This document shows, in pieces, positions 14,607-58,900 of a stretch of 64,000 nt of DNA. A program made the position numbers and the translations under genes. Source of the stretch: Euglena gracilis (taxonomy: Eukaryota); the NCBI GenBank assembly GCA_039621445.1, contig CP154954.1, positions 8,310,634 to 8,374,633 of the forward strand, written 5' to 3'. The notes under the pieces are model-generated. The model did not search any database. It was not told where the DNA came from and saw nothing but the letters and a program-made list of their open reading frames with translations. Within the stretch, counting starts at the first letter, position 1. Every line of letters begins with the position of its first letter.

Positions 14607-14704
14607 GTGTGATCTGACCCTCTATGAAATAACTGGCTCGAAGGAACGTCGATGGCAACAGTTGACAGCACCTGCTTGGTCCACTTTTGCGCAATCTCAT
14701 TGTA

Positions 14705-16243: not shown

Positions 16244-16295
16244 TTCGAGACCCCACTGCCGCCATTGTACCCTTCGGTGTTTCCGCCCACACACC
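16244..16295 (+). CDS. IFT52: IFT52 exon, followed by a non-conventional intron
   Basis: cag| FETPLPPLYPSVFPPTH+c; IFT52 FETPLP..PxVFPP motif. Confidence 0.85.
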
Positions 16296-24989: not shown

Positions 24990-25930
24990 GTGCACTGAAA
25001 TTAAGGGGGCCAGGGCATTTTCTAAGGCACCTTGGGCACCAAGTCTTTGATAATGGGCTGTAAAAGCCTCCACCCCCCTCCACTAGCCAATTTCGCAAAC
25101 TTCTTGGGCTGAAAGGCCCAATTTTTTGAGTAAACCAACCCCTGCTCCTCTGGTGGAGTGGGCCCCCCACACCTGGGGGGTCACCCCATGCTTGGCCAAA
25201 AAATCTTTTGTGATAGAAGCAATGGTGTCTGCACTTATGGCCCTGAAGGGGGTTTTAATGAAATCAGGAGGGGGCCCCCCGGTCTGACGAATGAACGTGT
25301 GGCAGCCACATAACACATCATTAAATGAAATGGGCTTATTTGGGGACACTGGGGTATGGACACAACCCTTTCCCACTTATGGAATTTCTGTCCTTTACGC
25401 TTAATTTTGATGTAGGGTGCCCTACCCAACACACTGGTGGTTCGTTTGACTTGTGATAAGTCTGAGGATCGGTATAAACAGAGGATTCGTGAGCAAAAAA
25501 TCAGTTGTGTACGCAATGTACAAATATCAGTGGGCATAGGCGCCTTTGCCAGCCCCAGGAGGATTGGGAGGGGGTCCCAAAATGCACCATACTTCTCCAG
25601 GTTTTGGTTCCAAAGCCTCTTGTAGGGGGTTAACAGGGTGTGGAATCTCAGCCCACCAAACCCAGGAATCAAAAGCATTGCACTATATGCATTACGGGCT
25701 TGGGCCTTGGAAAATTGAAATAATTGAATTAAAGCGTCAGCCACCTGGTCTGTGGTGGCTTCAGGGGGGGGCACCCCCATTTTCTCCAAAATAACCCACA
25801 GAAGTGAAAAGGCACTTTGATAACGCCTTAAGCTTGGATTTCTCACCAGGAAATCGTTAATGGTTGCAATTTGTACTTGCTTCCCCTCCAAAATTTTCCT
25901 GAGCAAATCATGCAAAACAGGGGCCATCTG
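24990..25930 (-). pseudogene. DIRS tyrosine recombinase (frameshifted)
   Basis: LYRSSDL in the C-terminal part of ORF 25235..27712, GAHSTRGAG in 25083..25376, and AHY near 25050, in different frames. Confidence 0.85.
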
Positions 25931-27771
25931 GGGGGTGGCATTTGCTCCCCCCTGCAGTTGCTGAACATGCCCTTGTAGGGGGTGATTTTCAGGCAGGGGG
26001 TCCCTGGAACTTTCATTTTTATTAATTGGGGCCACCATGTGGCTGAATCCCAGTAGGGGGTGACCATCAAAACTTTGGTCTGGGGAAACATTTTCAACCT
26101 GGGAAGAAATTGTTGAATTATTGACCAGGGGGGGTTTGCATAAAGATCCCCCATGTTGTCCAGTGGACATTGTAATGCATTTACTGCTGTGGCTTCCCAA
26201 TGTGGCCACCTGGCCACAAAACTGGGCAGTTTTTTGTTGCCTGGGGAGGCAAATAAATCTGTTTCCAGATTTATAAAATCTTTGAATTGCTGTCTGAGCC
26301 ATTGAAAAAGTTGGGGGTCTAAAGAATAATCCCCCCTGTATATTTCCCATCTGCTGATGGGGTCTGCCAGGCCTTCTTTTGAAGGCACCCAGTTGACTTG
26401 GAGGTTTACTTGTTTTTCCATGCACCATTTGAAAAATGGTCTCAGCATTTTGTTGAAGGGGTCCTTTCTGCCCCCACCTTTTGTTAGGTAAAAGTAAATT
26501 ACCTGGTTGTCCACAGACAAAGAAACGGTTTCTCCAGGTTTGCTCAAACTTTTCACAGTGTTGATTGCTGCACTGAGCTCCTTTACGTTGATGTGCAAAA
26601 TGGAGTCCTTTCTCCAAAATTCCTGCACAATTTCTCCTGTGTGGATGTCTAGCCCCCCCCAGGCATGGGTGCTGCTGTCTGAGTGCAATACTCTGGTTGC
26701 ATTGTGGGGGAAGGGTCTGCCCCCCCAGGTGTCCAGCAGAATTTTTATTTCCCTTAATTGGGCCTTGATTTCCTGGGAAATGGGGTGTTTCGAGTCCCAG
26801 GGGGCTGTGGACTTTGCCACCAAAAATTTTGCCAGGGCATCCGTAAAAGCCCTTAAAAAGGGCAGGGCCATTAGGTTGCATCTTATTTGGCCCAAAATGG
26901 CAGCCAATTGCCTTTTTGACATGTAATCTTTTTTCACAATTTTTCCCAGCTCCTTTTTTATGGTTTTGATTTTCTGGGGGGGCACCTGCAACTTTCCCTC
27001 CTGGAAGTTCAATTGAAAACCCAGATGGGTTACCACTTGGGTGGGCTGGAGGGTGGACTTTTTCACATTGATTTTGAATCCAGAATCCAGCAAATCGTTG
27101 ACAACTGTTTTCAGGTGATTTTGTAAAATGTTCTGGGTGGGGGCCACCAGCAAAATGTCGTCCAGGTAAATAAACACCTGGATGCCCCTTTTTCTCCACA
27201 GTTTTTCGAAGGTTTTCATCACTGACATGAAAATTTGGGGCATTACATTTAGCCCAAAGCAGCCTGTTTGAAATTCCCAGGTCTGCCCCCCTATCTGATG
27301 CCTTAAAAAGGGCCTTAGGCCTGGACTTACTGGAATATGAAAATAGGCATCTTTCAGGTCTATTTTTGCTGCCCAGTGGCCTTTTTCCAAAACTGGAAAA
27401 ATGTGCTGGACATGATCCAGCTTGAATGGTTTTACTTGAAACTGCTGATATATTTCTCTGCAGTCGCTGATCATTCTCCATTTGGTTGTTCCCCCTTCTG
27501 GTTTTGAAATTAAAAACCATGGGATCAAATGTTGGGTTTCTGAATCCCAAACTCGTTTCACTGATCCAGTTTTTTCGTAATCCTGCAGAATTTTTTCTGC
27601 CTGGTTCAGGTCTAGGTTGGCTCTGGGTTTTGGGTGGGTGGACAATTTTGGGGGATTCACCCATGGGGGTTGAATTCCCTTTTTTATCAATTGACATGTT
27701 GCTGGGGGGCATTTTTTGTCCACCATTTTAGACTTTTTTGAAGTCTGTGGTACAGGGGGGTGTCTCCCCAT
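25843..27771 (-). CDS. DIRS pol: reverse transcriptase, RNase H and N6-adenine DNA methyltransferase domain
   Basis: Uninterrupted 642 aa: KIDLKDAYFH, CFGL, YLDD (RT); SDSS..WG, HINVKEL, VDN, ADPISR (RH); DLFAS..N and YANPPW (DAM-like). Confidence 0.93.
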   Translation of the reverse strand: MGRHPPVPQTSKKSKMVDKKCPPATCQLIKKGIQPPWVNPPKLSTHPKPRANLDLNQAEKILQDYEKTGSVKRVWDSETQHLIPWFLISKPEGGTTKWRMISDCREIYQQFQVKPFKLDHVQHIFPVLEKGHWAAKIDLKDAYFHIPVSPGLRPFLRHQIGGQTWEFQTGCFGLNVMPQIFMSVMKTFEKLWRKRGIQVFIYLDDILLVAPTQNILQNHLKTVVNDLLDSGFKINVKKSTLQPTQVVTHLGFQLNFQEGKLQVPPQKIKTIKKELGKIVKKDYMSKRQLAAILGQIRCNLMALPFLRAFTDALAKFLVAKSTAPWDSKHPISQEIKAQLREIKILLDTWGGRPFPHNATRVLHSDSSTHAWGGLDIHTGEIVQEFWRKDSILHINVKELSAAINTVKSLSKPGETVSLSVDNQVIYFYLTKGGGRKDPFNKMLRPFFKWCMEKQVNLQVNWVPSKEGLADPISRWEIYRGDYSLDPQLFQWLRQQFKDFINLETDLFASPGNKKLPSFVARWPHWEATAVNALQCPLDNMGDLYANPPWSIIQQFLPRLKMFPQTKVLMVTPYWDSATWWPQLIKMKVPGTPCLKITPYKGMFSNCRGEQMPPPRWPLFCMICSGKFWRGSKYKLQPLTISW

Positions 27772-28975
27772 TTTTCCTCCATGGAATTTATTTCCAAATT
27801 AGATGATTTTCTGGGAGTTGGGTGGGGGGTGTTGGACATTGCACCCCTGGTGCCCCTGGGGAATGAGCTTTCTCTAAAGGTGGCTGGGGGGGTGTGCATG
27901 CTCTGCTCACAGTCTCTCTGATTCTCCACTTTGTCATTGGTGTTGTCGATTGACATACCATAGGGGCCCCTTTTTGGGTCTCCCCCTTGTTTTGGTTTGC
28001 CCCTGCCATGGGCACTGACAAAGAATGTTGAGGGGGGGTTGCCCCCTTGTCCTCCACTGCCCCTGTGGGGGCATCCTCCTGGGGCTGCCACCGTACATTT
28101 AAACCCCCTGCTGGGGGACAGCTTTTTAGCTTCTGGGGGTTTCCCCCTTCTGATAATTGATGGCCCCATTGGCCTTGAAATTGTTGATGATGGAGTTGAT
28201 AATTCTGGCCCCACTGGCCCTCTTGTTGTTTGGATAGTCCCCATTGACTTCTCTTTGATCTTGGGCGCCATGCCCATTGATAATCTTGGGGGGCCTCTGG
28301 GGGCCAACCCTTTTCCCCTGATGGGGTTTGAGATGATGAATTGGGTGGGGGGGTGTTGTGGACCTGTCCTGCCCCTGCCACTGGGCATCTGTTTGTGGAA
28401 TCGGCCACCATGGCCTTGGTAATGTTGGCCACCCTGGCCTTGATATTGCTGGCCGCCCTGGCCTTTGTCCCATTGGCCACCATGGCCTTTGCTGTTGTGG
28501 CCGCCATGGCCCAGCTTGCTGTTTTGGCCGCCATGGCCCAGCTTGAACAATGTATTGGTGTAACTGGGATATGGGCCTCCATGGCCCTTGCCGTTATGGC
28601 ATGACAGTTGCCTTGGCCTTGGTGTCCGTCGGGTTTTTCTGACCACTGTCTGCCAAAGTCTGTGGCTGTCACTGGGTGGGTTTTTAGAAACTTTTTCTGG
28701 GGGGGAAGGGACAGCCACGGTTCGCCACGGTTGCACTGCGCCGTCAGGTCGTCCAGCTGTGGCTGCAGGAAGTTCTTCTTGTTCAGCAACGGTCTTCTTT
28801 GTGTTGTCAATTGCATTTCTCATTGAAATCTTGTTGTGTCAACAAAATTGGATTTGATATTCTCCACGAGTGTCACTTTCTGGATAATTCGATTGATTCA
28901 ACTCTTTGATATTCAACTGTCAAGCTTCTTGAATTGAAGTTCCTTTCTTCTGGGTTGTCGAAGGGCAAATTAAGA
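27690..28975 (-). pseudogene. DIRS gag-like ORF1 (disrupted)
   Basis: Lies between the 5' ITR and pol; homologous to the + strand copy at 30095-31320 (FPFDPEERSFN / LPFDNPEERNFN). Confidence 0.6.
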
Positions 28976-29164
28976 ATCAGCCAACTCCGGCGAAAAAAGG
29001 CACTAAGCAGAGACTCCTAACCCAACGCGTCACAATCCACACAACACCGCCGGCGAGCAAGGCATGACCTAACAAGGGCAAAGTGCGGAGCCCGAGGTGT
29101 CCCTCGGTGTCCCCTCCTCCCTTCCTGGTCTGCCTCGAGGGACCTCGGCGAACAAGGCATGGCC

Positions 29165-29500
29165 TCACAATGGCAAAGTGCGGAGCCCGAGGTGTCTCCG
29201 CCACCTCGGGCGCCGCTTCCAAGAGGCTCTGTAGGGGGCAAAATCGGCCTTCAGTAAGTCCACGCCGCTGATCTGGAACAGCCGCTTTGATGCTTTTCCT
29301 GTCGACAAACCTGCTCCAGTAAACTTCAATCCAGCGTGCAAGATGGCGATGACGACGTTCTTCTCCAGGTCGTGTAGCATCCTTAGTTGCTCCAAGTTGA
29401 AAATGAACTCGGTCCACGATTGTTCGAAGAGCGGTCCTTCCTCGGTGAGCTGGGCAATGTGATTATTCTCCACGTCCATCTTGCATTGGATTGATTGCAA
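29165..29500 (-). CDS. Unknown ORF fragment, probably from a further truncated element
   Basis: Non-repetitive, protein-like 111-aa ORF between the two DIRS copies; no motif recognised. Confidence 0.25.
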   Translation of the reverse strand: MQSIQCKMDVENNHIAQLTEEGPLFEQSWTEFIFNLEQLRMLHDLEKNVVIAILHAGLKFTGAGLSTGKASKRLFQISGVDLLKADFAPYRASWKRRPRWRRHLGLRTLPL

Positions 29501-29966
29501 TCTTCACCAATTATGGATCTTGTTGGTACTTGTTGATCTTGCTTGCTTTGTTGTGCGATAGCTTGTGATAGCTTTCATTTATAGCAGGGCTACGTCAGCC
29601 AACTGCTGGCGCGAAAAGCGGTAAGGAGAAGACGCAAGGCAAGAAAAACAAAGCACAATAGCCGGCGAGGGAAAGGCAGGTCCCATCGAGCCAAAGTGTG
29701 GAGCAAGGGTGGTCCGCCCACCCTTGTCACGGAAAGCCTGCGGGCCCTTTTTTATTTTAAAAAACCACCAGCCTTCTTGGGCTTTTCCGGCTGGCCCCGT
29801 CCTCTTTTGGCCGCCATCGCGTCCGTCCTGGGTGGGCTCCCCGCCAAAGCAAATTCAAGGTCAGCCCCGAAAAGCCCGGCTTTGTCGAAGATTTTTCCGT
29901 GCGAACGCAGTCGCAGGTACTCTTTTTTCTGGAAAGCGAGGGGTAGCGCCGAAAACCACCTCGGGC

Positions 29967-31321
29967 CACCTCGGGCTCCGCACTTTGCCCTTGTGAGGCC
30001 ATGCCTTGTTCGCCGGCGGTGTTGTTTGGATCGTTCGTTGTGCGTTGGGTTAGGAGTCCCGCTTAGTGTCTTTTTTCGTCGGAGCTCGCTTATTATTAAT
30101 TTTCCCTTCGACCCAGAAGAAAGGAGCTTCAATACAAGAACCCTGACAATTGGATATCAAAGGATAGGTCAACTAAATTATCCGGAAAGCGACCCTCGTG
30201 CAGAATATAAAATCAAATTTTGTCGACAAATTAAAGATTTAAATGAAATATGGAATTCCAAAGACAAAGAAGAGCACCTGTGGACTACAAGAACTGGCTG
30301 CCGCTGCAGCTGGACGACCTGACAGTGTGGTGCAGTCGTGGAGAATCGTGGCTGTCCCTCCCCTCCCAGAAAAAAATTCTGATCACCCACCCAGCGACAG
30401 CCACGGACTGTGGCAGACAGTGGTCAGAAAACCCCGAAGGACACAAAAGGAAAGACAACTGTCAGGCCACTGCGGCCAAGGCCATGGAGGCCTATATCCC
30501 AGTCACACAACTACATCGTTCAAGCTGGGCCATGGAGGCCACAAAAGCAATGACCACATGGAACAAAGGCCAGGGTGGCCAACAGTATCAAACCCACGGA
30601 GGCCGACTCCACAAGCAGATGCCCAGTGGCAGGGGCAGGACAGGTCCGGAACACCCCCCAACCAGTTCTTCATCACAACCCCTTTCAGGGGCAAAGAAGT
30701 GGCCCCCAGAGGCCCCACAAGATTTTCAATGGGAATGGCGTCGCAGAACAAAGAAAAGTCAATGGTGACTTTCAAAGTTTCAAGAGAATTATTCTCATCC
30801 AGGCCCCCGGACCCCTCATCATGCTCAAGTCCAACAGTTTCCTCAAACCCCTTCAGGGGTAAATGAGTGGCCCCCAGAGGCCCCCCAAGATCTTCATTGG
30901 GCATGGCGTCCCAGAACAAAGACAAGTCCATGGGGTTTGTCAAAATTTCAAAAGGCGGGTGGACTCAACACCAAGAGTGCCAGTGGGGCCAGGATTTTTG
31001 TCAAGGCCACTGGGGCCAGCATTATTCTCATCAACCTGGCCAAGACCAACAATTTCAAGGCCATTGGGGCCATCAATTATCAAAAGGGGGAAACCCCCAG
31101 AAGCTAAAAGGCTGTTCCGGCAAAATGGGAATTCAATATACTGTGGCAGGCCTGGGAGGAAGCCCCAAGAGGGGCAGTGGATGACAAGTTCTTCAACGCC
31201 CATGGCAGGGGCAAACCAAAGCAAGGGGGAGACCCTCAAAGTGGCCTCTACGGAATGTCAATTGACAACCCCAACGACAAAGTGGAGGATCAAAGAGCCT
31301 GTGAGCAGAGCATTCACCCCC
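29967..31321 (+). mobile_element. DIRS copy 2, 5' part (ITR and gag-like), head-to-head with copy 1
   Basis: Starts CACCTCGGGCTCCGCACTTTGCC; colinear with the reverse complement of 29100-27895; breaks at 31321. Confidence 0.85.
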
Positions 31322-39496: not shown

Positions 39497-39594
39497 TAGA
39501 AGGTATTTACAGAAATGTTAATGTTGTCTCGTTTGTTCCATAGCTTCCAGTCTTGCTGGATGTAACCAACAAAACTAGTTGCTGGTTCCCAAGT
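39497..39594 (-). pseudogene. Element A chromodomain C-part and pol stop
   Basis: TWEPATSFVGYIQQDWKLWN...TAA; completes WKGYGPEEG|TWEP. Confidence 0.85.
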
Positions 39595-41134
39595 TGTGGC
39601 ATTGGACATGTCCCTACCTTTCAGATAAATTAGGACTGAGTGCGCGCGCTGCACACTGTAAATTCTGTTTTTTCTGTTCAGTCAAACCTCATGAGTTGAT
39701 TGCTGGGCCGTTGGGTCGTGGCCCCCTGGCATATATCTGTACCATGGGACTGACTGGGGATTTGGAGATTTGAGTTTTGCGCTGTGGTTGAAGTTTGAAA
39801 ATTTGAAGTGGAATTGGCCTGCCAATGGGGCGGAAGGCAAAGCCCAAGGCAAAGGCAAAACCCAAGGCGAAGCCGCAGCCAGCCAAACAGGGGGCCCGGG
39901 GTCGGGCGGCAGAAAAGGTGTGGATTGCGAAGAGAGCCGCCACCCCGGCGCCGCCCCTGTTTCACAATCAACTCGCCTGTGACGACCAGTCAGATGACAC
40001 AGTGGAGCATGCTGGACTGGTGCATGCACCAGTGGGACATTCTGGCGCTGGAATTGGTCAACATGTTCAAGATGTACATTCCGGTCATTTGGGCCATGCC
40101 GCAGATGCACATGGGGTGCATGCTGCAGATGCCGCAGATGCACATGGGGTGCATGCTGCAGAGGCCTCACATGCACATGGGGTGCATCTTGGGGGTGGCC
40201 TGACTGGAGATGCAGATGACAGAGGTGTACATGCAATGGCGGCCAGGTCAGGGCAGATGGTGGATGCCCTGGCCCGGCATGCTGAAGTTGGGCATGAGGG
40301 GGGCACGACCCGGCCATGTACAACCGCTCAGGGTTTGGCCACTCAGAAAGCCGGTTGTGCTTCGGCCGCCGAGAAAGGGTCCCCCAGCAGAGCTTAGGCC
40401 GCTGTGGGGACATGCAGCATTGAGCATGAAGGCATTGCGCATTACGACATTGGGCATTCCGACATCGAGGATGACGGCATTGGGAATGTCGACATCGAGG
40501 ATGACGGCATGGGACATGCAGCTGCAGACCCCAACAGTGCTCCGGCCGTTCGGGCGATGGAGATACAAACCGCCAGCCGCGCTGCGGCCGCTGGGGTCCC
40601 TAGGTTCTCCAATGTGGGTGATGGTGATGTACCGATGGAGATCCAAACCCCCAGCTGTGCTTCGGCCGCGGGGGTCCCTGAGTTCTCCGTCCTGGCGTGA
40701 TTGGGGTCCCGCCTGGAGAAGGACGGAAGTGTGATGGATTTTGCTGGGCTGATCTTGGATGCCACTGTGGGGTGAGTGGCGGCCAGCCCAATCTGGGAGG
40801 CCAAGACATCTCCGAAGGACCAGCTGGAAGCAGTGCATCGTCGCCGAGGGCGGAGGCTACGCCGGCGGCAGTGGATGAGTCCATAGCGGAGTCTCGACGA
40901 CTGGCCGTGCGGTACGAGCGAGAAGCCCGAGTTCGACACAGGGATGCGCTGTCGGAGATGAGGCCGCTGACGGAGACGGAGAAGCAAAAGAGGCGGAAGG
41001 ACCGCCTGCTCCACCACCAGGGACGGTGGGAGTGAGGAGGAGTGGCCGAACCGAAGAGGCGGCCCGGGTAACGGGCGAAGAGTCCGCCCCGCCAGCCCTC
41101 CCGTTTAGAGTTGGCCTGCATTTTGGGTTCCCCT

Positions 41135-42210
41135 CCTGGTGGGTTACGACCCCAGGTTGGGGGTGATGCGGGTTTTGGGGAATTACGAGTGACAAATGAC
41201 CCATCTGGTGTGTTTCGACCCCAGGTGGGGGGGGTTATTGTTTCGTATGTTGAGTGTGATAAATGACCCATCTGGTGTGTTTCGACCCAGGTTGGGGGGC
41301 ACATTACTGTTTCCGGCATGAGATGAGATGACCCATCTGGTGTGTTTCGACCCCAGGTTGGGGGGGCACATTACAGTTTTCGGAATGAGATGAGATGACC
41401 CATCTGGTGTGTTTCGACCCCAGTTTGGGGGGTACATTACCATTTTGGGAAGGAGATGAGATGACCCATCTGGTGTGTTTCGACCCCAGGTGGGGGGGTA
41501 CATTACCGTTTTTTGGCCCCTGGTGAGTTACGACCCCAAGGGACGCCTGGCCCGGTGACATTGTTGGTTTGATGGTCGAAGGTGTCCCGTCCTCCCCCTT
41601 GGCTGTAATGCCCTGGTGGGAATGTTGGAGGCCTGCCCTGGAAGTGGTGGGTTTGTTTTGACGGTTCAAGTTTCGACATTGGACATTACCATATTTTGAC
41701 ATTGGACCACGATCGTTGCCTTATCGCCTTTGTTTTTCAGCCTGGAACCCAGTGAGTCTCGACCCTGGGGGTGGGAGGCTTTTAGATTCGGAGAGAGTGC
41801 GAGAGTTTTGTGGGTTCATGGCCCCAGGCCCCTCACCCGCTGAGTTTCGACCGCGGGGTGGGGGGGTATTTCCAGTTTTGAGTTTTCTTTTTTTTCAGAG
41901 AATTCCAACCCGGACCTGTCACCCGCCGAGTTTCGACCGCGGGGGGGGGGGCAGCCTTCTTTTTGATGATGTTCGGGTTGGAGCCTTTCCATTCGAATTC
42001 CATTCATGGGGGGTTTTGGGCCCGAGCCCCCACCCGCTGAGTTTCGACCGCGGGGGGGGGCGTTTTCAGTTTTGGAATTTTCAGTTTTCAGTACAAGGCC
42101 CTGGGGCCCCCGCCCGCCGGTTTCGACCGCGGGGGGGGGGGCAGATTTATGTTTTCGGTGCGCTTTGGCCCCGGTGGCCCCCCAGTTGAGTTTCGACCAC
42201 GGGGTGGGGG
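41135..42210 (+). repeat. Array of ~13 related stem-loops in element B
   Basis: Core TGWGTTTCGACC enclosed by complementary flanks; five ~63-bp tandem units followed by dispersed copies. Confidence 0.85.
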
Positions 42211-42480
42211 GGTGGAGGAGGACATGTCCAACGACCAAGGGAGTCAAGTATGGAGACTGGGTCTCCTTTTGGGAAGGGGAGTGTGGCATTGGACATGTCC
42301 CTACCTTTCAGATAAATTAGGACTGAGTGCGCGCGCTGCACACTGTAAATTCTGTTTTTTCTGTTCAGTCAAACCTCATGAGTTGATTGCTGGGCCGTTG
42401 GGTCGTGGCCCCCTGGCATATATCTGTACCATGGGACTGACTGGGGATTTGGAGATTTGAGTTTTGCGCTGTGGTTGAAG

Positions 42481-43471
42481 TTCCTCTGCATGGATTTTCT
42501 TGAACTTGAACCTTGCAAAGGAACAGATGACGAAATTTACGATTACGTTCTTGTTGTCGTCTGTCGGCTGAGTCGGTACATTGTAGCCATTCCATGCCAC
42601 AAAGCAGGGTTGACAGCACAAGTTTTAGCACAAATGTTTTTAGAAAGATGCATTTGCCTCATGGGTTTACTGAATTGAATCGTGAGTTATCAAGACCATT
42701 TGATTTCTTCTCGATTTTTTACAACTCTTTGCGGTTTACTCGGAATTGAGCAGCATTTTTCTATCATTTATCGTCCAAAAGGCAATGGTCGCGCTGAATC
42801 GGCAGTGAAAGCTGTAGTCAACATGCTACGACTTCAACTGGCCGAATCGCACAATGCCTGGCTACAAGTATTACCCTGGTGTTTGTTTTATATTAACACT
42901 TTACCGGGGGTGGTACTACAATACTCACCGTACAAGATCGTCTTCGGACGTGATCCCCCAGCCATTGGCGACATCCCGTGAGAACGACCTGCTCGTTCTA
43001 GCGTGAGTTGCGAAACATGGTTCTCTGAAGTAGAATCATTGCGCACGGATGTGCAAAAGCGCGTAGTCGCTATACACTTACAAAAACAAAAACAATTCTT
43101 ACAGGATTGCAAATCACCGATATACAACCCAGGTGACCGCGTGTGGGTTAGGAACACTAGAACCCGCATGCAATCCACGAAGTTGGACCCCCTCTGGATC
43201 GGACCATGCGAGATCCTCGATCGGTTGAGTACAAGTGGGCGCTACAAAGTCGCTTTACCCAACGGTGTCGAGGATGTGCACATGGATGACTTTAAACCAT
43301 ACCTGACTCCACCAAACGGTAAAGCCATACCCTGTCTCTACTTCAAACCAAGGTCAAAACTGCCTGAGACAGATGATTTTGTCGTTGACAAAATCCTCGA
43401 CCACAAAGTAGACAGAGGTATACATTACTGGAAAGTACGGTGGAAAGGATATGGTCCCGAAGAGGGCACTT
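42481..43471 (+). pseudogene. Element A integrase core, GPY/F-like region and chromodomain N-part, inverted relative to the rest of A
   Basis: CMDFLEL, YRPKGNGRAE, KLDPLWIGP, FVVDKILDHK..YWKVRWKGYGPEEG. Confidence 0.9.
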
Positions 43472-43632
43472 TGAAACAGGGGCGGCGCCGGGGTGGGGGC
43501 TCTCTTCTCAATCCACAGCTTTTCTGCCGCCCGACCCCGGGCCCCCTGTTTGGCTGGCTTCGGCTTCGCCTTGGGTTTTGCCTTTGCCTTGGGCTTTGCC
43601 TTCCGCCCCATTGGCAGGCCAATTCTACTTCA

Positions 43633-43944
43633 TTTGGTACGGGGAAGAAGTCCATCGTACCAGGGGGGGCTACCTCTGCGCGGATTCACAGCTTGGCAAA
43701 TTTGGCACCGTTGCGAAATTTGTAAACAGCGCTTATACAGACCTTTTTTGGTCAGGGTTGTACAGTACCTGCGACCCACCAAAGAAAGAAGTTTGGGGGC
43801 CCCAGGGTGACCTTGGTTGTGATAACATAAAAGTACGTCATCAACCAAGTCACAGGGTATGCAGTACTGGTAACCGGTACCATTCCAAAAAATCAAACGT
43901 AAAGGCGACAAGGTATAATTCGTAACCAATTCACCATTACGCAA
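43633..43944 (-). pseudogene. Element A integrase zinc-binding (HHCC) domain
   Basis: HNQGHPG...CQICQ. Confidence 0.85.
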
Positions 43945-44064
43945 TCTTTGTACGACAGCATTGTAAAAATCATCTTCGAAAAAAGAGAGGGGATGGAGAT
44001 TCTGATCGCGTGACCCGGCGGGGGCCCGGCATTCTGCCGCGTTGTCATTTTCCCCGTACGGGGG

Positions 44065-46165: not shown

Positions 46166-47129
46166 TGTGCGATTTTGGAAAACCAGGTTTCCAAAATGCG
46201 GTATTGTCCAAAATTGAACGCATTTCAGATGCGGTTCGCGACAACTGTTGCGGTTTCAGTCCTATGGAGGGTTGAAACACAGTTTACCGAGCCACATCGG
46301 TAATACGTGGTGTCCGAAGACACTTCATCAGGCATTATACCAGGTGTATCAGGTGTATTGTGTAGAGGACAATTGTCGTTGGCATTCTGCCAGTTGTATG
46401 CAGGGACATTGGAGGGGTTGGCATTCTGCCATTCGGGGTCAGAGAGATTGGCTTTCTGCCATTGGACGTCCTGTTGTGCGATTCTCGCGATTCCGAACAG
46501 GGACGCGATTCCGCGTTTGTCCAATTGTTGATGTACTTCAACACACAACGGGTAACAACCCGGTGTGTTGTGTTCTCGTTCAGCGGCCAGGGTAAACTTG
46601 GTACCGGTTCCGGTATCAAGTATCCTCTTGTTGTTGTGTAAAGCGATTAGTTTGGAAGGTTCAACAATACATCCACAGTCGAAATCAGGTTGTGTGGAAA
46701 TTCTCCGGCAATGTGCGCATTGGTAGAAAGTGTCGGTCTGGTAATACCTGTCAGTCACGTGTAGTGTGTTCATGGGGGTGTTGGAAGTTGTAGCTGCTGG
46801 GGGGTGTACAGGGGTGTCCGAAATCGACGCACGTTGTGCAGCTGGGCGGCTACTCGACACCAAATTTGTTCAGGTCTTTGGGCTTTCGCCTTGGAACCCA
46901 GTGAAACGTGGGGGGTTAAGCTACTCGATTCCCCTACCGCATGGGAAACGTGCGGTATAAGTGTGATGGGCAGGGGGGCAGCTTTCTCTTTACCCCTAGG
47001 GTAGGAACCGGTGTTTTCGGTTGTAGAAAATGTTGTGGCCAGGCGGGGGGACATCTGGGGAGATGTCATGGGGGAGAAGTTCGGTGGTGTGGGTTGTGTG
47101 CGTGAAGTAGTGCGCAAACCGAGGGAGGG

Positions 47130-47708
47130 GCAATCCACAATAAGGCGGTTCTGAACCAAGAACGGAAAACCCAAAATTACGTCAGAGCCGCGAATACCCG
47201 ATTCGTAACTCCAGGTACCCAGAAAATTTTGTATGTGCGGGGGGTGTGAGTGGTGCTTGGGGATGATGGGGAGGAGTATGTCCAAAAAGCATCCCAAGTC
47301 ACCACCACACATGGGGCTGTTGTCAGCAGTCATAATTTTGATGGGGTACTTGGCTTTCACCAAGAGGGAGTTGGGAATTAATCACGTTCGAAAGAGAAGG
47401 GGGATTCGACACCCTGTGTTGACCAAAATTTTGCATTTGGTAGAAAAATTTTGTGTTCGGATTTCCGCTTGGACTAAAAGTTCCATGGGGGGTACGCGAA
47501 GTGCAGGATCCGGTGTAAAATTGTTGTCTCTCCAACTATTCCAGGATCCTGTTCCTACTTTGCTCAGCATCCCAGGCAGAAATTTGGAGTGGGGGGTGGG
47601 GGACCCGAAAATTTTCCGGGCACCGACCAAAAAGGCAGATGGGCAGGGTAAGTAAGGTTGATCAGGTCCTACTTCCGTCTGTTCATCAGCCCAGAGGTCC
47701 GTGCCCAC
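47130..47708 (-). pseudogene. Element A aspartic protease
   Basis: ILVNTGC (ILVDTGC in element C) and DVILGFPFL. Confidence 0.85.
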
Positions 47709-49170
47709 AGACCTCGGGCTCCCCTCCTCAAGTCCGAATCAGCACTTCGCCTGTTTATCGTTTTCTTGTGTGAGTAGATAGCGCGCAATGCGCGGACCGC
47801 ATTGCGGTCATCCTCCAACGAGGATTCGGAGTTCTCATCCCCCTCCCTGCCTGAAGCCGGGGTTCCCTCCTCCAAAGAGGAGATTTTGAACCCGACCTTG
47901 TGTTTGTTGTTGTGTTTTGTATCACTGTGGTGACGTTGGTTCGGGCGGGGAGAGCGAGACTGGAACATTTGGAGGAATGGTGGTTGTGTGATCCACAAAG
48001 GGAACACTTTTGTCGGTTTTGTTACTGTTGTCAGTTTTGTGATGGGCTTTCACCCCTTGGAGGTCTTGGTGAACGGAATCCCGTTCGACCACGGTCGTTG
48101 TAACCCGGTTTCCCGGATGACGATCTCGAAGAAGATGATCCACTTCGCGAACGTGATCGCGATGAGTCGCGATTTGTATCACGTTTGTAAGGGGGTCGGG
48201 GTGATCGACCACGAGGTGCGTGATTGCGTCCGCGATCGCGGAACGGTGATCGGGACCTTTGTCGATATCCCGAAGATTGTGATTGTCCAGATTTGTGCGA
48301 ATATCCGGAGGAGCGCGAGCTCTGCGAGGATTGTGAACCCCTTGGTCTCTGATACCGCTTTCGCGTATCAGGGTGGGGGCAGTCACGGGACGTATGTCCC
48401 GCTTTGTTGCACAAAAAGCAAGTTTTGTCAGAAGATTGGTCAGATGAGCGCGGATAGCGCGTTTTTGTATCTCCCCTTGGGGAGTTTGTATGTTTACCAA
48501 ATCCCCTTGGGGATTTTGGTGATTTTGGAGAAGAAGCCTTTTGTAGGGCACTTACCGTACCGCTAGGGAGACCAGCGGTAGGGTGGTGGGTGTAAGCCGA
48601 TTGTATCTGTCCCAAAAGTTGTGAGGTTTTTATTTGTTTGGAAACATAGTTCCATCGTTGTTCAAGTGTGAGTTTGTTGTCCGCGAGTTCCTCGCGGTGG
48701 ATGTCTTTGATAATTGTAGGAATGAAATGGAGGAGAACCGCATCGAATTGTTCCTTCGTTTGGTTCTCTCCCAGTTCATCAACTTCAGAAGCCAATCCCA
48801 ACCATTTGGAATACCAAAGGTCGATTGACTTCCATTTACGGTCACTGGGCGCGAATTGTCGCAATTTCTTCTCCAGCGTAATTCGCGAAATGAGGCTTGA
48901 ACAGGTTGACGCATATTGGTCAACCAGTTCCTCAAAAGTAATCCGATTCCGGATCACAAGTTGTCGGGCGCGTTCTTTTTCTTCCTTGGGGAGGCAATCA
49001 ATGAATTACATCTTGATTACCTCAGGGTTCCCGTCTTGGGTTGGACCCTTCAAGTCCCAGTCCTAGTCGTCGCGCCAAAATTGTTTCCAAGTTGTGGGAT
49101 AGCCGTCCCATGGTGGCATACCCTTGTTGGCAATTGTAATGTACCTTTGAAATTGCGTTGTGGACCGTGA
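47669..49170 (-). pseudogene. Element A gag core with two CCHC zinc knuckles and an RS-rich linker
   Basis: CFLCNKAGHTSRDC and CSLCGSHNHHSSKC; capsid-like helical region in ORF 48031..48957. Confidence 0.85.
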
Positions 49171-49199
49171 TTTCCATCGTAATGTTGGGGTGTTGTGTT

Positions 49200-49990
49200 T
49201 TTGGTGGGGGGGGGGGGGCGAGCGATGCCAATGAAAAGAAAGTAATTGGGACTTCGTTGTTTTTGGATTTTTTGGTTGAGTTCGGAAAAGATTCCCCCTT
49301 CTTTGTGGCATATTGAATCGCCTTTGTTTCCCCCCCCCAAGTTTTCATTACCGCACATTCCCCCTTTTTCTTTTGCACTTTTTGTTGTTTCATCCTTCTT
49401 CCGCCAATACTTATCACCTTGGAGTTTTTTTGTCCCGTTTAAATCCGGGATTGTCTCCGGCGCAGGGAAAAAGGAATGATCATCCGAACATGCTTATGAA
49501 CTCTTTTTTCCATTTTCTCTTTTTTTCTTCCTTTTCTCTTGCCACTCTCTTTTTCTCCTTTTTTTTCGTTCTTTTTTCAGCCCTTCTTACCTTCTTTTTT
49601 TTTTCCTTTTTTGATTTTTCATTTTTCCCCTTTTTCCACCTCCCTCCGTTTTTTTTGCTGTTCCCAGAAATTCTCCAAATAATATGGGGTTCCGGCATTG
49701 GGGAAAATTTTTGTCCGGGGAGGATTTTCCTGAAAATGTAGCGTAAAAAATAACAATTCTCCTGCCACAACAAAAACAATGGACTTTTCGGCCATCTACC
49801 TCCCTGGAAATTTTCCCAAGACCACAAGTGCGAAGACCCCAAAGTCCCGGGTTGGGTGCCATGGGGTTTCGGGACGGGGAAAATCGTGACATTTTTGGAA
49901 AAAAATAAAAAAATACAATCCCTTGTTTTTGGCCGGGACTTCGGGCGTAAACCTGGGGGTATTATGGGGGGGGGGGACCATGGGCACATT
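49200..49990. mobile_element. Low-complexity insertion within element A (boundaries approximate)
   Basis: T/C-rich, homopolymer-rich block with no counterpart in element C; interrupts the reading frame. Confidence 0.45.
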
Positions 49991-49999
49991 TTCTTGGTA

Positions 50000-52900
50000 C
50001 ATCGCAATTCCGCGGTTGTATGGTTGTGGTTCGCGATTCCGCGATTCGGATTGTAAAGGGTCGCGATTCCGCGATTCGGGTTGTTGGCAAATACCAGGGG
50101 GGGTAGGAATTCCTGTTGTTCACCCGCAAATCGGGGAACCGCGGTAAATTCCGTGTTTCGCATTCGCGATCCATGGCCAATACCCGGGGTAGGGGTATTG
50201 CTCATACCGCGAATCAGTCCCGATTCGCGAATTTCCTGTTGTAAAACCGGAGGATTCACGGTTTTTGTGGTAAAAACCGGTTCCTCATCCGAAGATTCAC
50301 CCTTAGGGGGTGAATCTTACGTTGTGGTATAAACGGGCGATTGTAATCGCGACTGTAGGCCTGTTCACGACCATGTGCATCCGTGGATGCTTGTAGGGCA
50401 TGCGCACCCGAAGTTGCTGGTAGGTGTGCGCATACTGCGCTTTTGGAAGGATTGGCATCCAACGAATCGCGAATTTGATGCACAAAGTCGCGAGTTGGAC
50501 GTAGGGCATCCGAAGATGCTTCGGTTGATGCGCGAAAAGTGCGTTGTGAGCTGGAAGTTGCATTTTGACCACCGAAAACACGGTTTTCAGGGGCAAAGTG
50601 CGGGGGGTTGCGGGATTTTGCATGAATCTCGTCCAAACTCGATGCAAAATCTTGGATACTTTGTTCCAATGAACCAACCACTTGGAAAAGGTCCGAAATT
50701 CGTTCAACATCACCCTGCAAACGCTTAATACGTTTGCGGAATGATGGTAACTCATCCAAAAGTGGTAATTTGTCAACAATGGAGTCAAAATCCGCGGAAA
50801 GCTTTGGAAAAGTGGTGTCCAAGAATTGGACCCGATTAACCAAAGTTTCCATTGCGGTTGTAAGGGTGTTCAACCGATTCTTGGTTTGTGGGGTTGTGGT
50901 ACCCAACGTGGGTTTAGGTACCCCTACCGCATTTTCAGCGGTTTTGTCGTCCATTATTGTAGAAAGTCGGTTCTCCAACACCGAAATTTGTCGTTTTAGT
51001 GTGAGAACTTGTTGGGTGACCGAATTTTCGGTCCTCTTCAACGTTTCACAAAATTCTTGTAAGTTTTCCTGATTTTTCGCAAGCATTTGGTCGTAAAATG
51101 TACGAAAATCAAGGGGTAGTTCGACTTCGCGAACCGTTTGTCCATCCGAGGATGGTTGGAGTCCGGAGACCCTTATAGAAAGTGTTTGTACGCGTTTTTG
51201 TAAATGGGAAGTGGTGGATTGTAAGGTTTTGTGTTGGGTATTCAAATACGCAAGTGCGGTTTCAATGCCGGTGACATCCGGAATTGATTTTTGAATACCG
51301 TTGCACCGTTTGTGCAAATCCGCAAACGCGGATTCGATCTTGTTCACATCCGCTTGTAACTGATTTTGAAAATCGGTTACAGTGCATCGTAATGCTCCCA
51401 TACTGGGATTTTTGGTGGAAATTTCTGCAAAGCGGCGTTGTAAGTCCGCAATTGCAGTTTGTAGTCCCGAAACATCCGCACAAGCGGTTTTCAGGTCTGC
51501 AAACGCAATTTGGAGGTCCGCATTCGCGGTTTGGATGGTAGTTATGACCGTTTCTCGGTCTTGGAGTTCCGCATTCACAGTTTGTAAGCTAAGAATAACC
51601 GCATCGCGGGATTGGAGTTCCGCCGTAGCGGTTTGTAGCGCATTGGAAGCAGTTTCAAGTTTTTTTTATATCGTTTTGCCACTTTTCATGGAGGAAATCT
51701 TGCCGATGGGCGATCTCCGCCACTTGAGTGTGCAATGTGGTCAAATTGTGGGAAACTTCACCGCATTTGCAGGAAGTTTGTTCCAAACGAGCAATCCGCT
51801 CTTCCAGTTGTTGCGCAAAAGCTCTTTGTACATAGTTTTCGCGTATTTGTATAAAATTTTGATGAAAACTCGCGTTGTCATTACCCAAACACAAAATGTG
51901 TTCTTGGGAGTGTTGTACAACATTGGACAGGGTTGAGAAGTTGAGAAGTGCTCATTTGAGACATATGAGCCAAGTTCCGCACCCGTAGGCGCTTTATCCC
52001 GTTGTTGTAGGCGGGACTGCATATCTTGCATTGTATAAGAAACGTTTTCCAGTTGTGTGAACAATTGTTGTACATTTTGTTGTAAATGTGAAAATTTTGC
52101 GTTATTCCGTGATTCCGCGGTGTGGAGGGTCTCTTGTACCTGTTGGAAGTTGTGTACCAAGGTGTTGCGCAAAAATGCGTCAAAACCTTGGTGGATGTTC
52201 TGGAGTTCCATGGTAGTGGAGTTGAAATTCTTTTGGCAAATTGTCCAAATTCTTGGACATATTCCCAAATGAAATCCAGCTTGACGAAAACGGCCTTGTG
52301 ACTGTCTTCATCAAATTGTAGGACTTGGTTCAGTGTTTTAGCGCAATTTTGGACACATGCTTCGATGTGTCGAAATTTCTGTTGTAGTGGGTGGTTCTCC
52401 GGTAAATTTGCGACTACGCGCTCAACGGTATTACTGGAGAACGAATCCCGGTCTTCCTCGGGGTCATTGTCCATGGGAACAATGACACCGGCAGTGTCCG
52501 GGACCACCAACCGCATTTCAGGCGGACCAAGGTAGTTCTGGTATTTCTCCAAATTGTGGAGGGGGGGCAAGTCCCGAATGGGGCTTACCAGTGGTAGGGC
52601 CGGGGGGGTTGGAAAAAAAAGGTGTTTCCAACCCGTCCTCGGAAGGGGGGGGCTCTCTAGGCAATTGGGTGCCAAAAGGCACTAATTGCCAGTCCCGTTC
52701 GGGCATTCTGCCCACTTGTGAGTGAGACTCCGCAGAAGCGGAGGGGGTCCGTAGACCCATTGTAGGGTTATGTTGCACCGCAAGTGCGGCTATTTTAACG
52801 GTGGGTCCGCGAATCCGGGTTGGGTCCGTAGACCCTTGGAGGGGGAGGGGACCGCCAAAGCGGCTTGGGTCCGAAGACCCTTGGAGGGGGGGGGGCACCG

Positions 52901-55977: not shown

Positions 55978-58900
55978 CCGACATAATTCTCTCTAGAGCT
56001 TCACAAATATCTGTGTCCCATTTAATTTTTGTATTCTCGGGTGCACGATTTTTGAGCTGCCTCGTTAGAGGTATCGCAATTTTCGCGAAATTTTTCATGT
56101 AAGGCGCGTAGTATTGGGCAAATCCAAAAAATCCCTTCAAATGGGTGATGGTCTTGATCACCTCAGGTGTCCATTCCTTGCTAGGCGCCGCTCGGCGTTG
56201 GCCATTATTAAGAATGTGACCACAAAACATTATAGTTTAGCGAAACAAGTGCATTTTAACACCTTTGACAAAAATTATAAGCTTAAGAAATGCGGTTTAT
56301 ACCGCGCGAACATCACGATAATGAATATCGAGAATATTCTCGTGTGTATTCGCTGAAGAAGGGGGGTACCAACCAAAACATCATCAATGAATACCAGCGC
56401 AAATGGTAAATCCCGTAAGACCCATTGGATCAATCTCCGAAACATTGCTGGTTCATTCATAACGCCCATTGGTAAAACCGTCGATTGGTAAACACCTCTG
56501 GATGGTACAAAAGATGTATAGGCCTGCGAATCGGGATCCAGATGCATTTGGTGGAAACCATCCTCCAGGTCGAAAACTGACCACAAGCGGTTATCCGCCT
56601 GTTTTGTGATGAGGTCCTCTATGAGAGGTAGCGGGAATGGGTCATCCTTAGCTTGTGAGTTTAACTACCGATAATCCAGTACCAGCCTCCACTTTTTCTA
56701 ACCTAACGGGTCTGGGGCCTTAGGGACCACAAAACCTTGGGAGGTCCATTCACTTTTGGAAGGGATGATCCACTTCCGCGCTATGAGCTTTTCAATCATT
56801 TCATTGAGAGCTAGCTCTCTTTCTCCTGAACAACAGAAAAATTTCCGATGCATTGGCTTTGTGCCTTCTTTAAGCTCAATCTTACAAAAACGGGATCTAT
56901 ATCGCAAGTGTAAACAGGATTCTCCAAAGCACCAGAATATTCGCCACTGACACGCGTACAAAATTCTGCTGAATTGGGGTGCTGTCCTGCACTATCAATG
57001 ACACCGGGAACCTGTTTATGGGTCATATAAACCATAGGTGGGGCTGAACGGTGATGCCTATCGGCAGTATGGAGAAAAGCCGTATCGGCCCCCACACGCT
57101 CGGTATGATCCAACACAATAACATTCGGGGAGGTATTTAGGGAAACATTAAAAGCATTAAAGAAACAAACGCGAAAAATGATTTCTTGAAAAGATGGTAA
57201 CACTACTCCACGGAAATCCTCGAATAGAGGAACATCGTTTGGCAGGTCCCACCAGTAAAAGGTGACATAAGTCAAATGTTGAAACCATTCCGTTTCGAGA
57301 TTCACAGGAACAAGTAATGTGCCTCGTGCCTGATCTCAAAAAATATCATCTACAACAAGCAGGATACGTTTCAGGGGGGTGCATCCATAAGATTGTGTCT
57401 GCCGAAAACTTATCAAAAGCGTTAGAATGTTGCGACGAATGTCGCGGTAATCGCGAATGCCCGTTGGAAGAGAATGCATCAATTTCAAATCAAAGGAATC
57501 CCCCATATCGGCATTTTTTGAAGAAAAAATGTTTCAAAATTCGATATTAACCAAACCGAAAAGCATTCCAGGTGTCCTTGGTGTACTTGCAAATCTGCTC
57601 CACATCCTGAAGGGGGGGAAAAAACTGTAAAACAGAACAACGGAATTGTGAATTATCCACACACATCTCCATAGGACTCGACCAAGGGGTGGGCATGGGT
57701 GGGTTGGGCATATACCCAGTCATCGGTGATACGCGATAGAGCGGAATGCACGATGCGCAGAATTGGCGCTATGTGCGGGCAGCGTGATATGCGCAGGGAG
57801 TGTGGAGAGCGCCATAAGTGCACGGGAGGCACTATGCGCAAAACTGAAAAGAGAGGCTATGCCTTTGCACTGTAGTGCTCGATTCACATCCGCGAATTGC
57901 GAAGGACTGCTAGGTAAATGTTGAAATGTGATAAACTACCACGTGTACCGCTGGGTGTACAACCCTTTGTACCCTAGCTATCTACATTTTGGTTATTTTT
58001 TAAATCAGTACCAACTGTACCACTACCAAGTGTAACGGTTTGGGTAGGGGATGAAATTTCCTGGTTGCGGGATCAAATTGGATTAGTTTGGGAAATTCAA
58101 AAAGACACCCACAATCAACATCATGGTAGGCAGAAATTCTCCGACAGTGAGTACATTGGTAGGAAGGTTGGTGCTTGTGGTGCGCGTTTGTGTGGGTGTC
58201 AGTGCATAAGTTGGTGTCGGTTGGGGTAGCTGTTGGGGGGTGTACAGGGGTGTCTGCAGTCGACACACCTGGTGGAAAACGGAAAAATTGTGCAGCCGGC
58301 CGGCTACTCGACACCGTAATTACTTCAGGCATTTGGGCTTTCGCGTCGGAACCAGCGAAACGTGCGGGGTTAAGCTACTAGCTTTCCCTACTGCATGTGA
58401 AACGAGCGGTAAAAGTGCTGTGGGTAGGGGGGCAGCTTTCTATTTACCCCTAGGGTAGAAAACGGTGTCTTCGGTTGTGGGAACGTTATGGAAATGCGGG
58501 GGGACGTCCTGGATGACGTCACAGTGAACAAGTTTGGGGGGTTTGGTGTGTGTGCGGAGGGAAGTGCGCAAACCGTGCGAAGGACAATCCACCACCAATC
58601 GGGGTTGTCATAGGAATAGAAAACCCAGTATGACATCTGACCCGGCGATATTCGCCTCGAAAGCCCAAGTGCCCAGAAATTTTTGGAATTGTGGGGAGTG
58701 TGTGTGGTGCTTCAGGATAACGGGTAGGACTATGTCCAAAATGCATCCCAAGTCACCACCGCACATGGGGCTGTTGTCAGAGGCCATAATTTTGATGCGA
58801 TTCTTGGCATGAACCAAGACGGTGGTGGGTATAAATCCTTTGCGGAAAAGAAGGGGGATTCGACACCCTGTGTCGACTAAAATTTTGGCTTGTGCACAAA

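What the first reader, a model, noticed from the sequence alone, without database searches (positions are those of the whole stretch)
39595..39980. Element B appears to self-prime reverse transcription (Tf1-like) rather than use a tRNA
Seen: the sequence right after the 5' LTR, CAATCAACTC (39965-39974), lacks the TGG of a tRNA PBS but is the exact reverse complement of GAGTTGATTG inside the LTR (39693-39702). The adjoining GGGCCGTTGGGTCGTGGC can pair with GCCACCCCGGCGCCGCCC near the LTR 3' end. Known: Tf1/sushi-group elements prime from the first ~11 nt of their own transcript, supported by an R-U5 stem. Inference: transcription starts near 39692, and an autonomous self-priming partner exists in this genome, in a lineage where I am not aware this has been described.
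Basis: partly seen in the sequence, partly recalled or inferred. Interest (0 to 1): 0.78.

Follow-up and report, generated by a model that had tools for sequence, protein, structure and literature searches.

The report
Likely self-priming LTR retrotransposon in a euglenid
A high-copy, non-coding LTR retrotransposon in a Euglena-like genome has, in place of a tRNA-type primer site, a sequence that pairs exactly with a stretch of its own LTR, so it probably starts reverse transcription from its own RNA as the yeast element Tf1 does; the mechanism is known, and only the host lineage appears new.

Summary
Element B is a real LTR retrotransposon. Its 5' LTR is 39595-39964 (370 bp, TG...CA), with a 4-bp target duplication AAGT and a polypurine tract. 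Its 3' LTR is split by a local inversion, so only 201 bp repeat directly.

The 10 nt right after the LTR (39965-39974) are the exact reverse complement of 39693-39702. Chance gives this in 109 of 100,000 LTR shuffles and at 0.18-0.54% of window positions. In nearly all related copies in three public DNA runs, 39975 is A. That extends the duplex to 11 bp, the length reported for Tf1. The first TGG lies 39 nt downstream.

If the RNA starts near 39692, the duplex has a predicted pairing probability of 0.95-1.0. A stable U5 hairpin abuts the primer site.

Not shown: the transcription start, the absence of a matching host tRNA, covariation among copies, and any autonomous partner.

The host is a euglenid, by an IFT52 exon. 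Self-priming is already predicted in fungi, vertebrates and about 12% of plant LTR elements, so this is a new member of a known kind. Confidence in self-priming is about 0.62.

The parts
39591..39594 (+). Target-site duplication, left copy (AAGT)
   Evidence: Read. The same four bases follow the LTR end on the inverted piece (reverse complement of 43468-43471). Other copies of the host element read straight across a single AAGT (loose ends at 39594 in 18 contigs of X1).
39595..39964 (+). 5' LTR of element B, 370 bp, TG...CA
   Evidence: Loose ends at 39964 into diverse flanks in 16 contigs of X1.
39659..39664 (+). TATA-like TAAATT, 28-33 nt upstream of 39692 (inferred promoter element, weak)
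   Evidence: Read. 39662 is A>T in about half of the family depth, so it is not well conserved. No promoter model for this lineage was available.
39692..39702 (+). Putative self-primer (TGAGTTGATTG), inferred 5' end of the transcript
   Evidence: Exact complement of 39965-39974. Identical in the 3' LTR at 42379-42389. T39692 pairs with the family-majority A at 39975. That this is the 5' end of the RNA is not shown.
39885..39962 (+). U5 hairpin abutting the primer-binding site
   Evidence: -44.2 kcal/mol, z = -2.58, 3 of 200 shuffles as stable. The 3' LTR version, which differs at 3 of its bases, folds alike: -42.7 kcal/mol, z = -2.75, 2 of 200.
39965..39975 (+). Primer-binding site without TGG (CAATCAACTC plus G, which is A in 99% of family depth)
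   Evidence: Predicted pair probability with 39693-39702 is 0.95-1.0 when the RNA starts at 39692 or 39680, and 0.17-0.18 when it starts at 39660. For the eleventh pair, 39692 with 39975, the values are 0.42-0.76 and 0.12.
39976..42270 (+). Internal region: no recognisable gag or pol, several tandem repeat arrays
   Evidence: 0 Pfam families for the 15 open frames of at least 110 aa overlapping element B (39685-42457). Tandem repeats include a 66-nt unit x 4.8 at 41196-41512. The ORF 39825-40397 has no homologues.
42271..42281 (+). Polypurine tract (GGGAAGGGGAG) directly before the 3' LTR
   Evidence: Read.
42282..42482 (+). 3' LTR, first 201 bp, 100% identical to 39595-39795
42483..43471 (+). 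Inverted segment of host element A (integrase core, SH3_Tf2-1, first part of the chromodomain)
   Evidence: Translation. Pfam SH3_Tf2-1 and Chromo (profile 1-32 of 53). The integrase zinc-binding domain continues on the minus strand at 43633-44064.
43472..43632 (-). 3' LTR, last 161 bp, inverted; 5 differences from 39804-39964 (at 39810, 39876, 39918, 39928, 39939)

Best explanation
Element B (39595 to about 43632 in its rearranged form) is a non-autonomous, high-copy LTR retrotransposon that inserted into the chromodomain of a larger chromovirus, element A. It most likely starts minus-strand DNA synthesis by self-priming of the Tf1 type.

The inferred steps are these:
1. Its RNA begins at or near 39692.
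2. The first 11 nt fold back onto the primer-binding site, which starts at the first base after the LTR.
3. The partner's RNase H cuts after the eleventh base.
4. The freed 3' end is extended from the last U5 base (39964) towards the RNA's 5' end.

What is shown: the anatomy (LTRs, target duplication, polypurine tract), the exact complement and where it sits, its extension to 11 bp in the family majority, the lack of TGG, and the predicted fold.

What is inferred: the transcription start, the cleavage, and the existence of a partner that supplies reverse transcriptase, RNase H and integrase.
For: (1) Canonical LTR element.
- 370-bp TG...CA LTRs.
- AAGT duplication and a polypurine tract.
- The host chromodomain reads ...WKGYGPEEGT then WEPATSF... 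across the empty site.
- Empty sites and LTR-end junctions appear in public contigs.

(2) The 10-mer at the first position after the LTR is the exact reverse complement of LTR positions 99-108.
- 109 of 100,000 LTR shuffles contain it.
- The background rate in the window is 0.18-0.54% per position.

(3) 39975 is A, not G, in about 99% of family depth in all three DNA runs: X1 23,664 of 23,832; X6 1,197 of 1,228; X18 311 of 319. This makes T39692-A39975 an eleventh Watson-Crick pair. Tf1 uses its first 11 bases (PMC7175516, passage seen).

(4) There is no TGG until 40003. Element A in the same window has TGGTAGCAGAATAGG right after its LTR, so tRNA-type sites are recognisable in this genome.

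(5) With the RNA starting at 39692 or 39680, the duplex has a predicted probability of 0.95-1.0.

(6) A hairpin of -44 kcal/mol (z = -2.6) ends one base before the two further pairs that extend the duplex. It is kept in the diverged 3' LTR version.

(7) A TATA-like TAAATT lies 28-33 nt upstream of 39692.
Against: - No transcription start data. All runs were contigs, and the one guessed RNA run laid 4 contigs, none informative.
- If the RNA starts at 39660, the predicted duplex probability falls to 0.17-0.18.
- The region as a whole is no more stable than shuffles (z = -0.25).
- No covariation could be shown. One search prints only 40 of 115 variable places. None lies in 39692-39702 or 39965-39974, but about one would be expected there by chance, so this silence says little.
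- The TATA-like motif varies in half of the copies (39662 A>T).
- Host tRNAs and tRNA halves could not be compared. No genome is held and the window has no tRNA gene.
- No autonomous partner was found: nothing else in the window resembles B, and element A is tRNA-primed with a 5-bp duplication.
- The primer-site bases lie inside a 190-aa open frame that begins in the LTR. If that frame were real, coding constraint could also conserve them. However, it has no homologues.
Confidence: 0.62

Rival explanations
1. The complement is a coincidence. B is primed by an unidentified host RNA: a tRNA fragment, a tRNA without CCA, or another small RNA.
For: Ten-mers with an upstream reverse complement are 5-15 times commoner in this window than random expectation. 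Half-tRNA primer sites lack TGG and exist elsewhere, in about 2% of plant elements (PMC6317226, passage). Some elements, such as Dictyostelium Skipper and SM-Tcn1, lack both a tRNA match and a self-complement (PMC5006619 and PMC2864245, passages). Host tRNAs could not be checked.
Against: The match sits exactly at the LTR junction (p about 0.001-0.005). It extends to 11 bp in the family majority.
Confidence: 0.18
2. The long-range stem is real but serves another purpose, such as masking the primer site, RNA packaging or dimerisation, or control of translation of the frame that starts at 39825. The primer would then be something else.
For: The predicted fold closes the whole R-U5 region into one domain. 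Long-range 5' pairings with roles other than priming are known in other retroelements; this is recalled and was not checked here.
Against: No alternative primer site is visible within 39 nt of the LTR. The geometry, with the complement ending at the first internal base, is what priming needs and what other roles do not need.
Confidence: 0.15
3. The repeats are not LTRs of a retrotransposon. They would be a segmental duplication or an assembly artefact, so 'primer site' has no meaning here.
For: The 3' repeat is only 201 bp in direct orientation. The inversion could be an assembly error. The two LTR parts differ oddly in divergence: 0 of 201 against 5 of 161.
Against: TG...CA ends, a 4-bp duplication, a polypurine tract and an intact host reading frame across the empty site. 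Hundreds of contigs in three runs match (1,764, 781 and 380 laid), with LTR-end and empty-site junctions.
Confidence: 0.03

Closest known systems
Tf1/Tf2 of Schizosaccharomyces pombe and Tj1 of S. japonicus (self-primed Ty3/gypsy elements)
   Same: The primer-binding site directly after the 5' LTR is complementary to a stretch of the LTR taken as the RNA's 5' end. The duplex is 11 bp in the B family majority, as in Tf1 (PMC7175516 passage; PMC4600332 passages). There is no tRNA-type TGG. A stable U5 stem-loop lies next to the site. A U5-IR-like structure is named only in the title of Lin & Levin 1998, seen in reference lists; that paper is not held.
   Different: B has no gag or pol, so its relationship to the Tf1/sushi clade cannot be tested. 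Its target duplication is 4 bp. The host is a euglenid, not a fungus. Transcript start and RNase H cleavage are experimentally shown for Tf1 and not for B.
Predicted self-priming lineages in plants (Tcn1 chromoviruses of mosses and club-mosses; TAR Ty1/copia) and vertebrate sushi-group elements
   Same: They are called self-priming on the same purely sequence-based criteria (PMC6317226 passages). This shows the mechanism is predicted far outside fungi: 12% of surveyed plant elements.
   Different: Those are autonomous elements placed by Pol phylogeny. B is non-autonomous and from Euglenozoa. The supplementary tables of PMC6317226 that list the primer sites were not opened.
Non-autonomous LTR elements (LARD/TRIM type)
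   Same: LTRs, primer site and polypurine tract surround a non-coding, repeat-rich interior of 2.3 kb. Copy number is high.
   Different: TRIMs are defined as under 1 kb with tRNA-type sites (PMC6934838 passage). B is 3.06 kb once the inversion is undone, and it lacks a tRNA-type site.

Membership tests
LTR retrotransposon (non-autonomous) | Two long terminal direct repeats ending TG...CA | tested here: met
   370-bp LTR. The 3' copy is in two pieces (201 bp direct at 100%, 161 bp inverted at 97%), and 8 bp (39796-39803) are lost at the inversion joint.
LTR retrotransposon (non-autonomous) | Target-site duplication and an intact empty site | tested here: met
   AAGT on both sides once the inversion is undone. 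The host chromodomain frame is continuous. Empty-site contigs are seen.
LTR retrotransposon (non-autonomous) | Polypurine tract before the 3' LTR | tested here: met
   GGGAAGGGGAG at 42271-42281.
LTR retrotransposon (non-autonomous) | No gag or pol of its own | tested here: met
   0 Pfam families in the 15 open frames of at least 110 aa overlapping B. The ORF 39825-40394 has no homologues. Short or very diverged gag remnants are not excluded.
Tf1-type self-priming elements | Sequence immediately after the 5' LTR is complementary to a sequence within the LTR | tested here: met
   10 of 10 in this copy, 11 of 11 in the family majority. Chance is 109 of 100,000 shuffles.
Tf1-type self-priming elements | The complementary LTR sequence is the 5' end of the transcript | not testable with these tools
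   Only contigs were available. The TATA-like motif at -28 to -33 is a weak hint.
Tf1-type self-priming elements | No tRNA complementarity at the primer site | tested here: inconclusive
   No TGG within 38 nt. The host tRNA set is unavailable.
Tf1-type self-priming elements | RNase H cleavage after base 11 creates the primer | not testable with these tools
   Biochemical feature (PMC7175516 passage).
Tf1-type self-priming elements | Supporting RNA structure (U5-IR-like stem-loop) | tested here: inconclusive
   A stable hairpin at 39885-39962 (z = -2.6 and -2.75 in two LTR versions) abuts the site. Whether it corresponds to Tf1's structure could not be checked, because the papers are not held.
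Tf1-type self-priming elements | Primer and site co-vary or stay matched among copies | tested here: inconclusive
   No listed variant in either segment, and the majority state at 39975 improves the match. However, only 40 of 115 variable places were printed.
Tf1/sushi clade of chromoviruses | Pol (RT-RNase H-integrase) groups with Tf1/sushi | not testable with these tools
   B has no pol and no partner was found. Element A's pol belongs to a different, tRNA-primed element.

The most novel reading that the evidence does not exclude
Euglenids harbour an as yet unidentified autonomous LTR retrotransposon lineage that self-primes like Tf1 and makes 4-bp target duplications. It has amplified a non-coding passenger family to very high copy number. 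If that lineage lies outside the Tf1/sushi clade, self-priming arose independently in Discoba. If it lies inside, the clade is far older or more mobile between kingdoms than thought.
Probability: 0.35. Interest if true: 0.55.

Novelty: new member of a known kind. Interest (0 to 1): 0.4.

Why it matters
Self-priming is the main known alternative to tRNA priming in LTR retroelements. It has been demonstrated experimentally only for fission-yeast elements and is otherwise inferred from sequence.

A clear sequence-level case in a euglenid would extend its known range to Discoba. In that genome LTR elements make up a fifth to a third of the DNA (PMC11252322 passage). It would also give a simple, testable marker, the 11-nt primer/site pair, for finding the autonomous partner and for sorting Euglena's largely unclassified repeats.

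It does not change what is known about the mechanism itself.

Tried and rejected
- **Whole genome:** none is held, so no genome-wide copy alignment, tRNA set or partner search was possible.
- **Earlier findings:** three look-ups found nothing.
- **Metagenome scan** with the U5-end motif: 1 hit, a bacterial coding sequence unrelated to B.
- **Viral contigs** scanned with the U5/primer-site motif: 0 hits.
- **Sequencing runs:** all 24 listed are contigs. The guessed RNA run X20 laid only 4 contigs. One of them (182 nt, 39807-39989) crosses the U5/primer-site junction, and one matches only a 40-nt low-complexity stretch. None bears on a start site.
- **Depth profile:** the bin 39679-39709 is 2-3 times deeper than its neighbours in all three DNA runs. 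The tool states that contig depth cannot rank parts of a stretch, so I do not use this.
- **B's ORF 39825-40394:** searched against 5.8 billion proteins with 'longer' and 'near' lengths, no hit.
- **Protein atlas:** two look-ups gave no lineage or family lead.
- **Bacterial-type promoter and terminator scan**: irrelevant to a eukaryote.
- **Direct repeat as the whole LTR:** I first read the 201-bp direct repeat as the whole LTR, which would have put the 10-mer 170 nt inside the element. The inverted 161-bp piece overturned that.
- **Levin-lab primary papers and review** (PMC1369541, PMC109269, PMC1563812, PMC6388632): not held. Details of Tf1's RNA structure are therefore recalled or taken from titles.

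Full report
**1. What is in the sequence**

CAATCAACTC occupies 39965-39974, and its exact reverse complement GAGTTGATTG occupies 39693-39702.

Whether 39965 is "right after the LTR" needed work. The direct repeat shared with the downstream copy is only 201 nt (39595-39795 = 42282-42482, 100% identical). On that evidence alone the 10-mer would lie 170 nt inside the element.

The remaining 161 nt (39804-39964) are present, but inverted, at 43472-43632 (97%). Between the two pieces lies the integrase core, SH3 and first half of the chromodomain of another element, read on the plus strand. That element's integrase zinc-binding domain, RNase H, RT and gag zinc knuckle all lie on the minus strand to the right.

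The simplest reading is an inversion of about 42483-43640. One break is in B's 3' LTR (8 bp, 39796-39803, are lost) and the other in the host element's integrase.

**2. The element with the inversion undone**

- The LTR is 370 bp and runs TG...CA.
- It is flanked by AAGT on both sides.
- GGGAAGGGGAG precedes the 3' LTR.
- The host chromodomain reads ...WKVRWKGYGPEEGT, then WEPATSFVGYIQQDWKLW..., across a single AAGT.

Public contigs agree. At 39594, 18 contigs of run X1 continue with the uninterrupted host sequence. At 39964, 16 contigs leave into unlike flanks.

**3. Is the complement more than chance?**

- 109 of 100,000 dinucleotide-preserving shuffles of the LTR contain the 10-mer.
- This window is rich in inverted and simple repeats. 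A 10-mer has an exact reverse complement in the preceding 370 nt at 346 of 63,620 positions (0.54%).
- With a complexity filter and a distance of at least 100 nt, the count is 91 of 49,286 (0.18%). More than half of these come from one long inverted repeat.

For one fixed position this gives p of about 0.001-0.005.

There is a further point. In the three DNA runs laid on the region, 39975 is A rather than G in about 99% of the depth (X1 23,664 of 23,832; X6 1,197 of 1,228; X18 311 of 319). The family majority therefore has an 11-bp Watson-Crick duplex, TGAGTTGATTG with CAATCAACTCA. The G in this copy looks like a later change. The 5' LTR also departs from the family majority at 39876 and 39939, where the 3' piece keeps the majority state.

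**4. Primer site and fold**

There is no TGG before 40003. Element A in the same window has TGGTAGCAGAATAGG directly after its LTR, and a 5-bp duplication AAAGT. Classic tRNA-type sites are thus easy to see in this genome, and B's lack of one is real.

Predicted probability of the 10 pairs 39693-39702 with 39965-39974 depends on where the RNA starts:

| RNA start | Pair probability (10 pairs) | Eleventh pair, 39692 with 39975 |
|---|---|---|
| 39692 | 0.95-1.0 | 0.42-0.44 |
| 39680 | 0.97-1.0 | 0.76 |
| 39660 | 0.17-0.18 | 0.12 |

After a one-base bulge, the duplex continues for two more pairs into the last two LTR bases. A primer ending at G39702 would therefore be extended from A39964, the last U5 base, which is what defines an LTR end.

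A hairpin at 39885-39962 abuts the site. It folds at -44.2 kcal/mol (z = -2.58; 3 of 200 shuffles as stable). The 3' LTR version, which differs at three of its bases, folds the same way (-42.7 kcal/mol, z = -2.75).

It loses to this hairpin (arms -45.6 kcal/mol), and its largest pair probability is 0.0008.

The region as a whole is no more stable than shuffles (z = -0.25).

**5. What could not be shown**

- **Transcription start.** All 24 runs found are contigs, which cannot show RNA ends.
- **Host tRNAs.** No genome is held, and the window has no tRNA gene.
- **Covariation.** One search prints 40 of 115 variable places. None lies in either 11-mer, but about one would be expected by chance, so this is weak.
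- **Independent copies.** Scans of metagenome and viral contigs gave only one chance hit.
- **An autonomous partner.**
  - Nothing else in the window resembles B.
  - B's interior has no Pfam domain.
  - Its one long frame (39825-40397, beginning inside the LTR) has no homologue.
  - Three majority variants at 39830, 39831 and 39839 would be synonymous in that frame (my reading).

**6. Lineage**

Exons of IFT52 lie at about 8.4, 10.8 and 16.3 kb. A 67-residue exon peptide is 100% identical to a EukProt entry named EG_transcript_9433, and 94% identical to a UniRef protein of Eutreptiella gymnastica. The window is therefore from a euglenid, most likely a Euglena; my reading of the "EG" prefix is recalled.

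A published Euglena gracilis assembly reports LTR elements at 22-33% of 2.37 Gb (PMC11252322, passages).

**7. Comparison with what is known**

- Tf1's first 11 bases pair with its primer site, and RNase H cuts between bases 11 and 12 (PMC7175516, passage).
- Tj1 is called self-priming on the same sequence logic (PMC4600332, passages).
- Self-priming is predicted for fungal and vertebrate Tf1/sushi elements, plant Tcn1 and TAR lineages, and 12% of surveyed plant elements (PMC6317226, passages; its supplements were not opened).
- Elements lacking both a tRNA match and a self-complement also exist (PMC5006619 and PMC2864245, passages). So lack of TGG alone proves nothing.
- Searches for Euglena with "LTR retrotransposon", "primer binding site" or "self-prim" found no paper on priming in euglenid elements. 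A 2026 preprint on Euglena LTR elements has no occurrence of either term.

**8. Verdict**

B works like a Tf1-type self-primer with a confidence of about 0.62. Membership of the Tf1/sushi clade cannot be tested without a Pol.

It is a new member of a known kind, in a lineage where I found no prior report. Interest is moderate (0.4).

Noticed in passing
window 42483-43640: A local inversion joins B's 3' LTR (after LTR position 201) to the integrase of host element A. The two LTR parts differ in divergence from the 5' LTR: 0 of 201 against 5 of 161 mismatches. It may be a real rearrangement or an assembly error.
   Followed up: partly
window 32482-54011 (minus strand): Element A is a 21.5-kb LTR element: 431-bp LTRs 95% identical, 5-bp duplication AAAGT, and primer site TGGTAGCAGAATAGG. 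It carries a gag zinc knuckle, RT/RNase H, integrase and a chromodomain. A 469-aa frame with weak coiled-coil-type Pfam matches lies upstream of gag (50259-51665). About 6.6 kb of long minus-strand frames without Pfam hits lie between the chromodomain and the 3' LTR. A 2026 preprint describes Euglena LTR elements with extra methyltransferase domains; none was detected here at E <= 0.001.
   Followed up: partly
window 56278-61858 (minus strand): A second, diverged relative of element A (64-76% identical to 46645-50773), with a gag zinc knuckle and an RT fragment. Its 5' LTR probably lies beyond the window end.
   Followed up: no
window 546-5432 (to about 6226): A 151-bp satellite in three blocks (4.0, 3.0 and 18.0 copies, 97% matches) with GC about 60%, followed by a diverged 416-bp-period repeat.
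   Followed up: partly
window 8237-16528 (plus strand): Exons of the host gene IFT52 (GIFT and central domains), with AG/GT splice borders at the one exon checked. One exon is 100% identical to a euglenid transcript-derived protein.
   Followed up: partly
window 25846-31321: A 651-aa frame with an RT domain (minus strand), next to inverted repeats 27890-29109 and 29957-31321 (72-76% identical). It may be a DIRS-like or other non-LTR-type retroelement.
   Followed up: no
window 39825-40397 (plus strand): A 190-aa open frame starts inside B's LTR with a lysine- and alanine-rich N-terminus and runs through the primer site. Three family-majority variants near its start would be synonymous, yet it has no homologue in the protein collection.
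   Followed up: partly
window 40096-42211: B's interior is largely tandem repeats (33-, 30-, 78- and 66-nt units), plus dispersed copies of a motif ending in a G-run (...GTTTCGACC(C/G)...GGGGGG).
   Followed up: no
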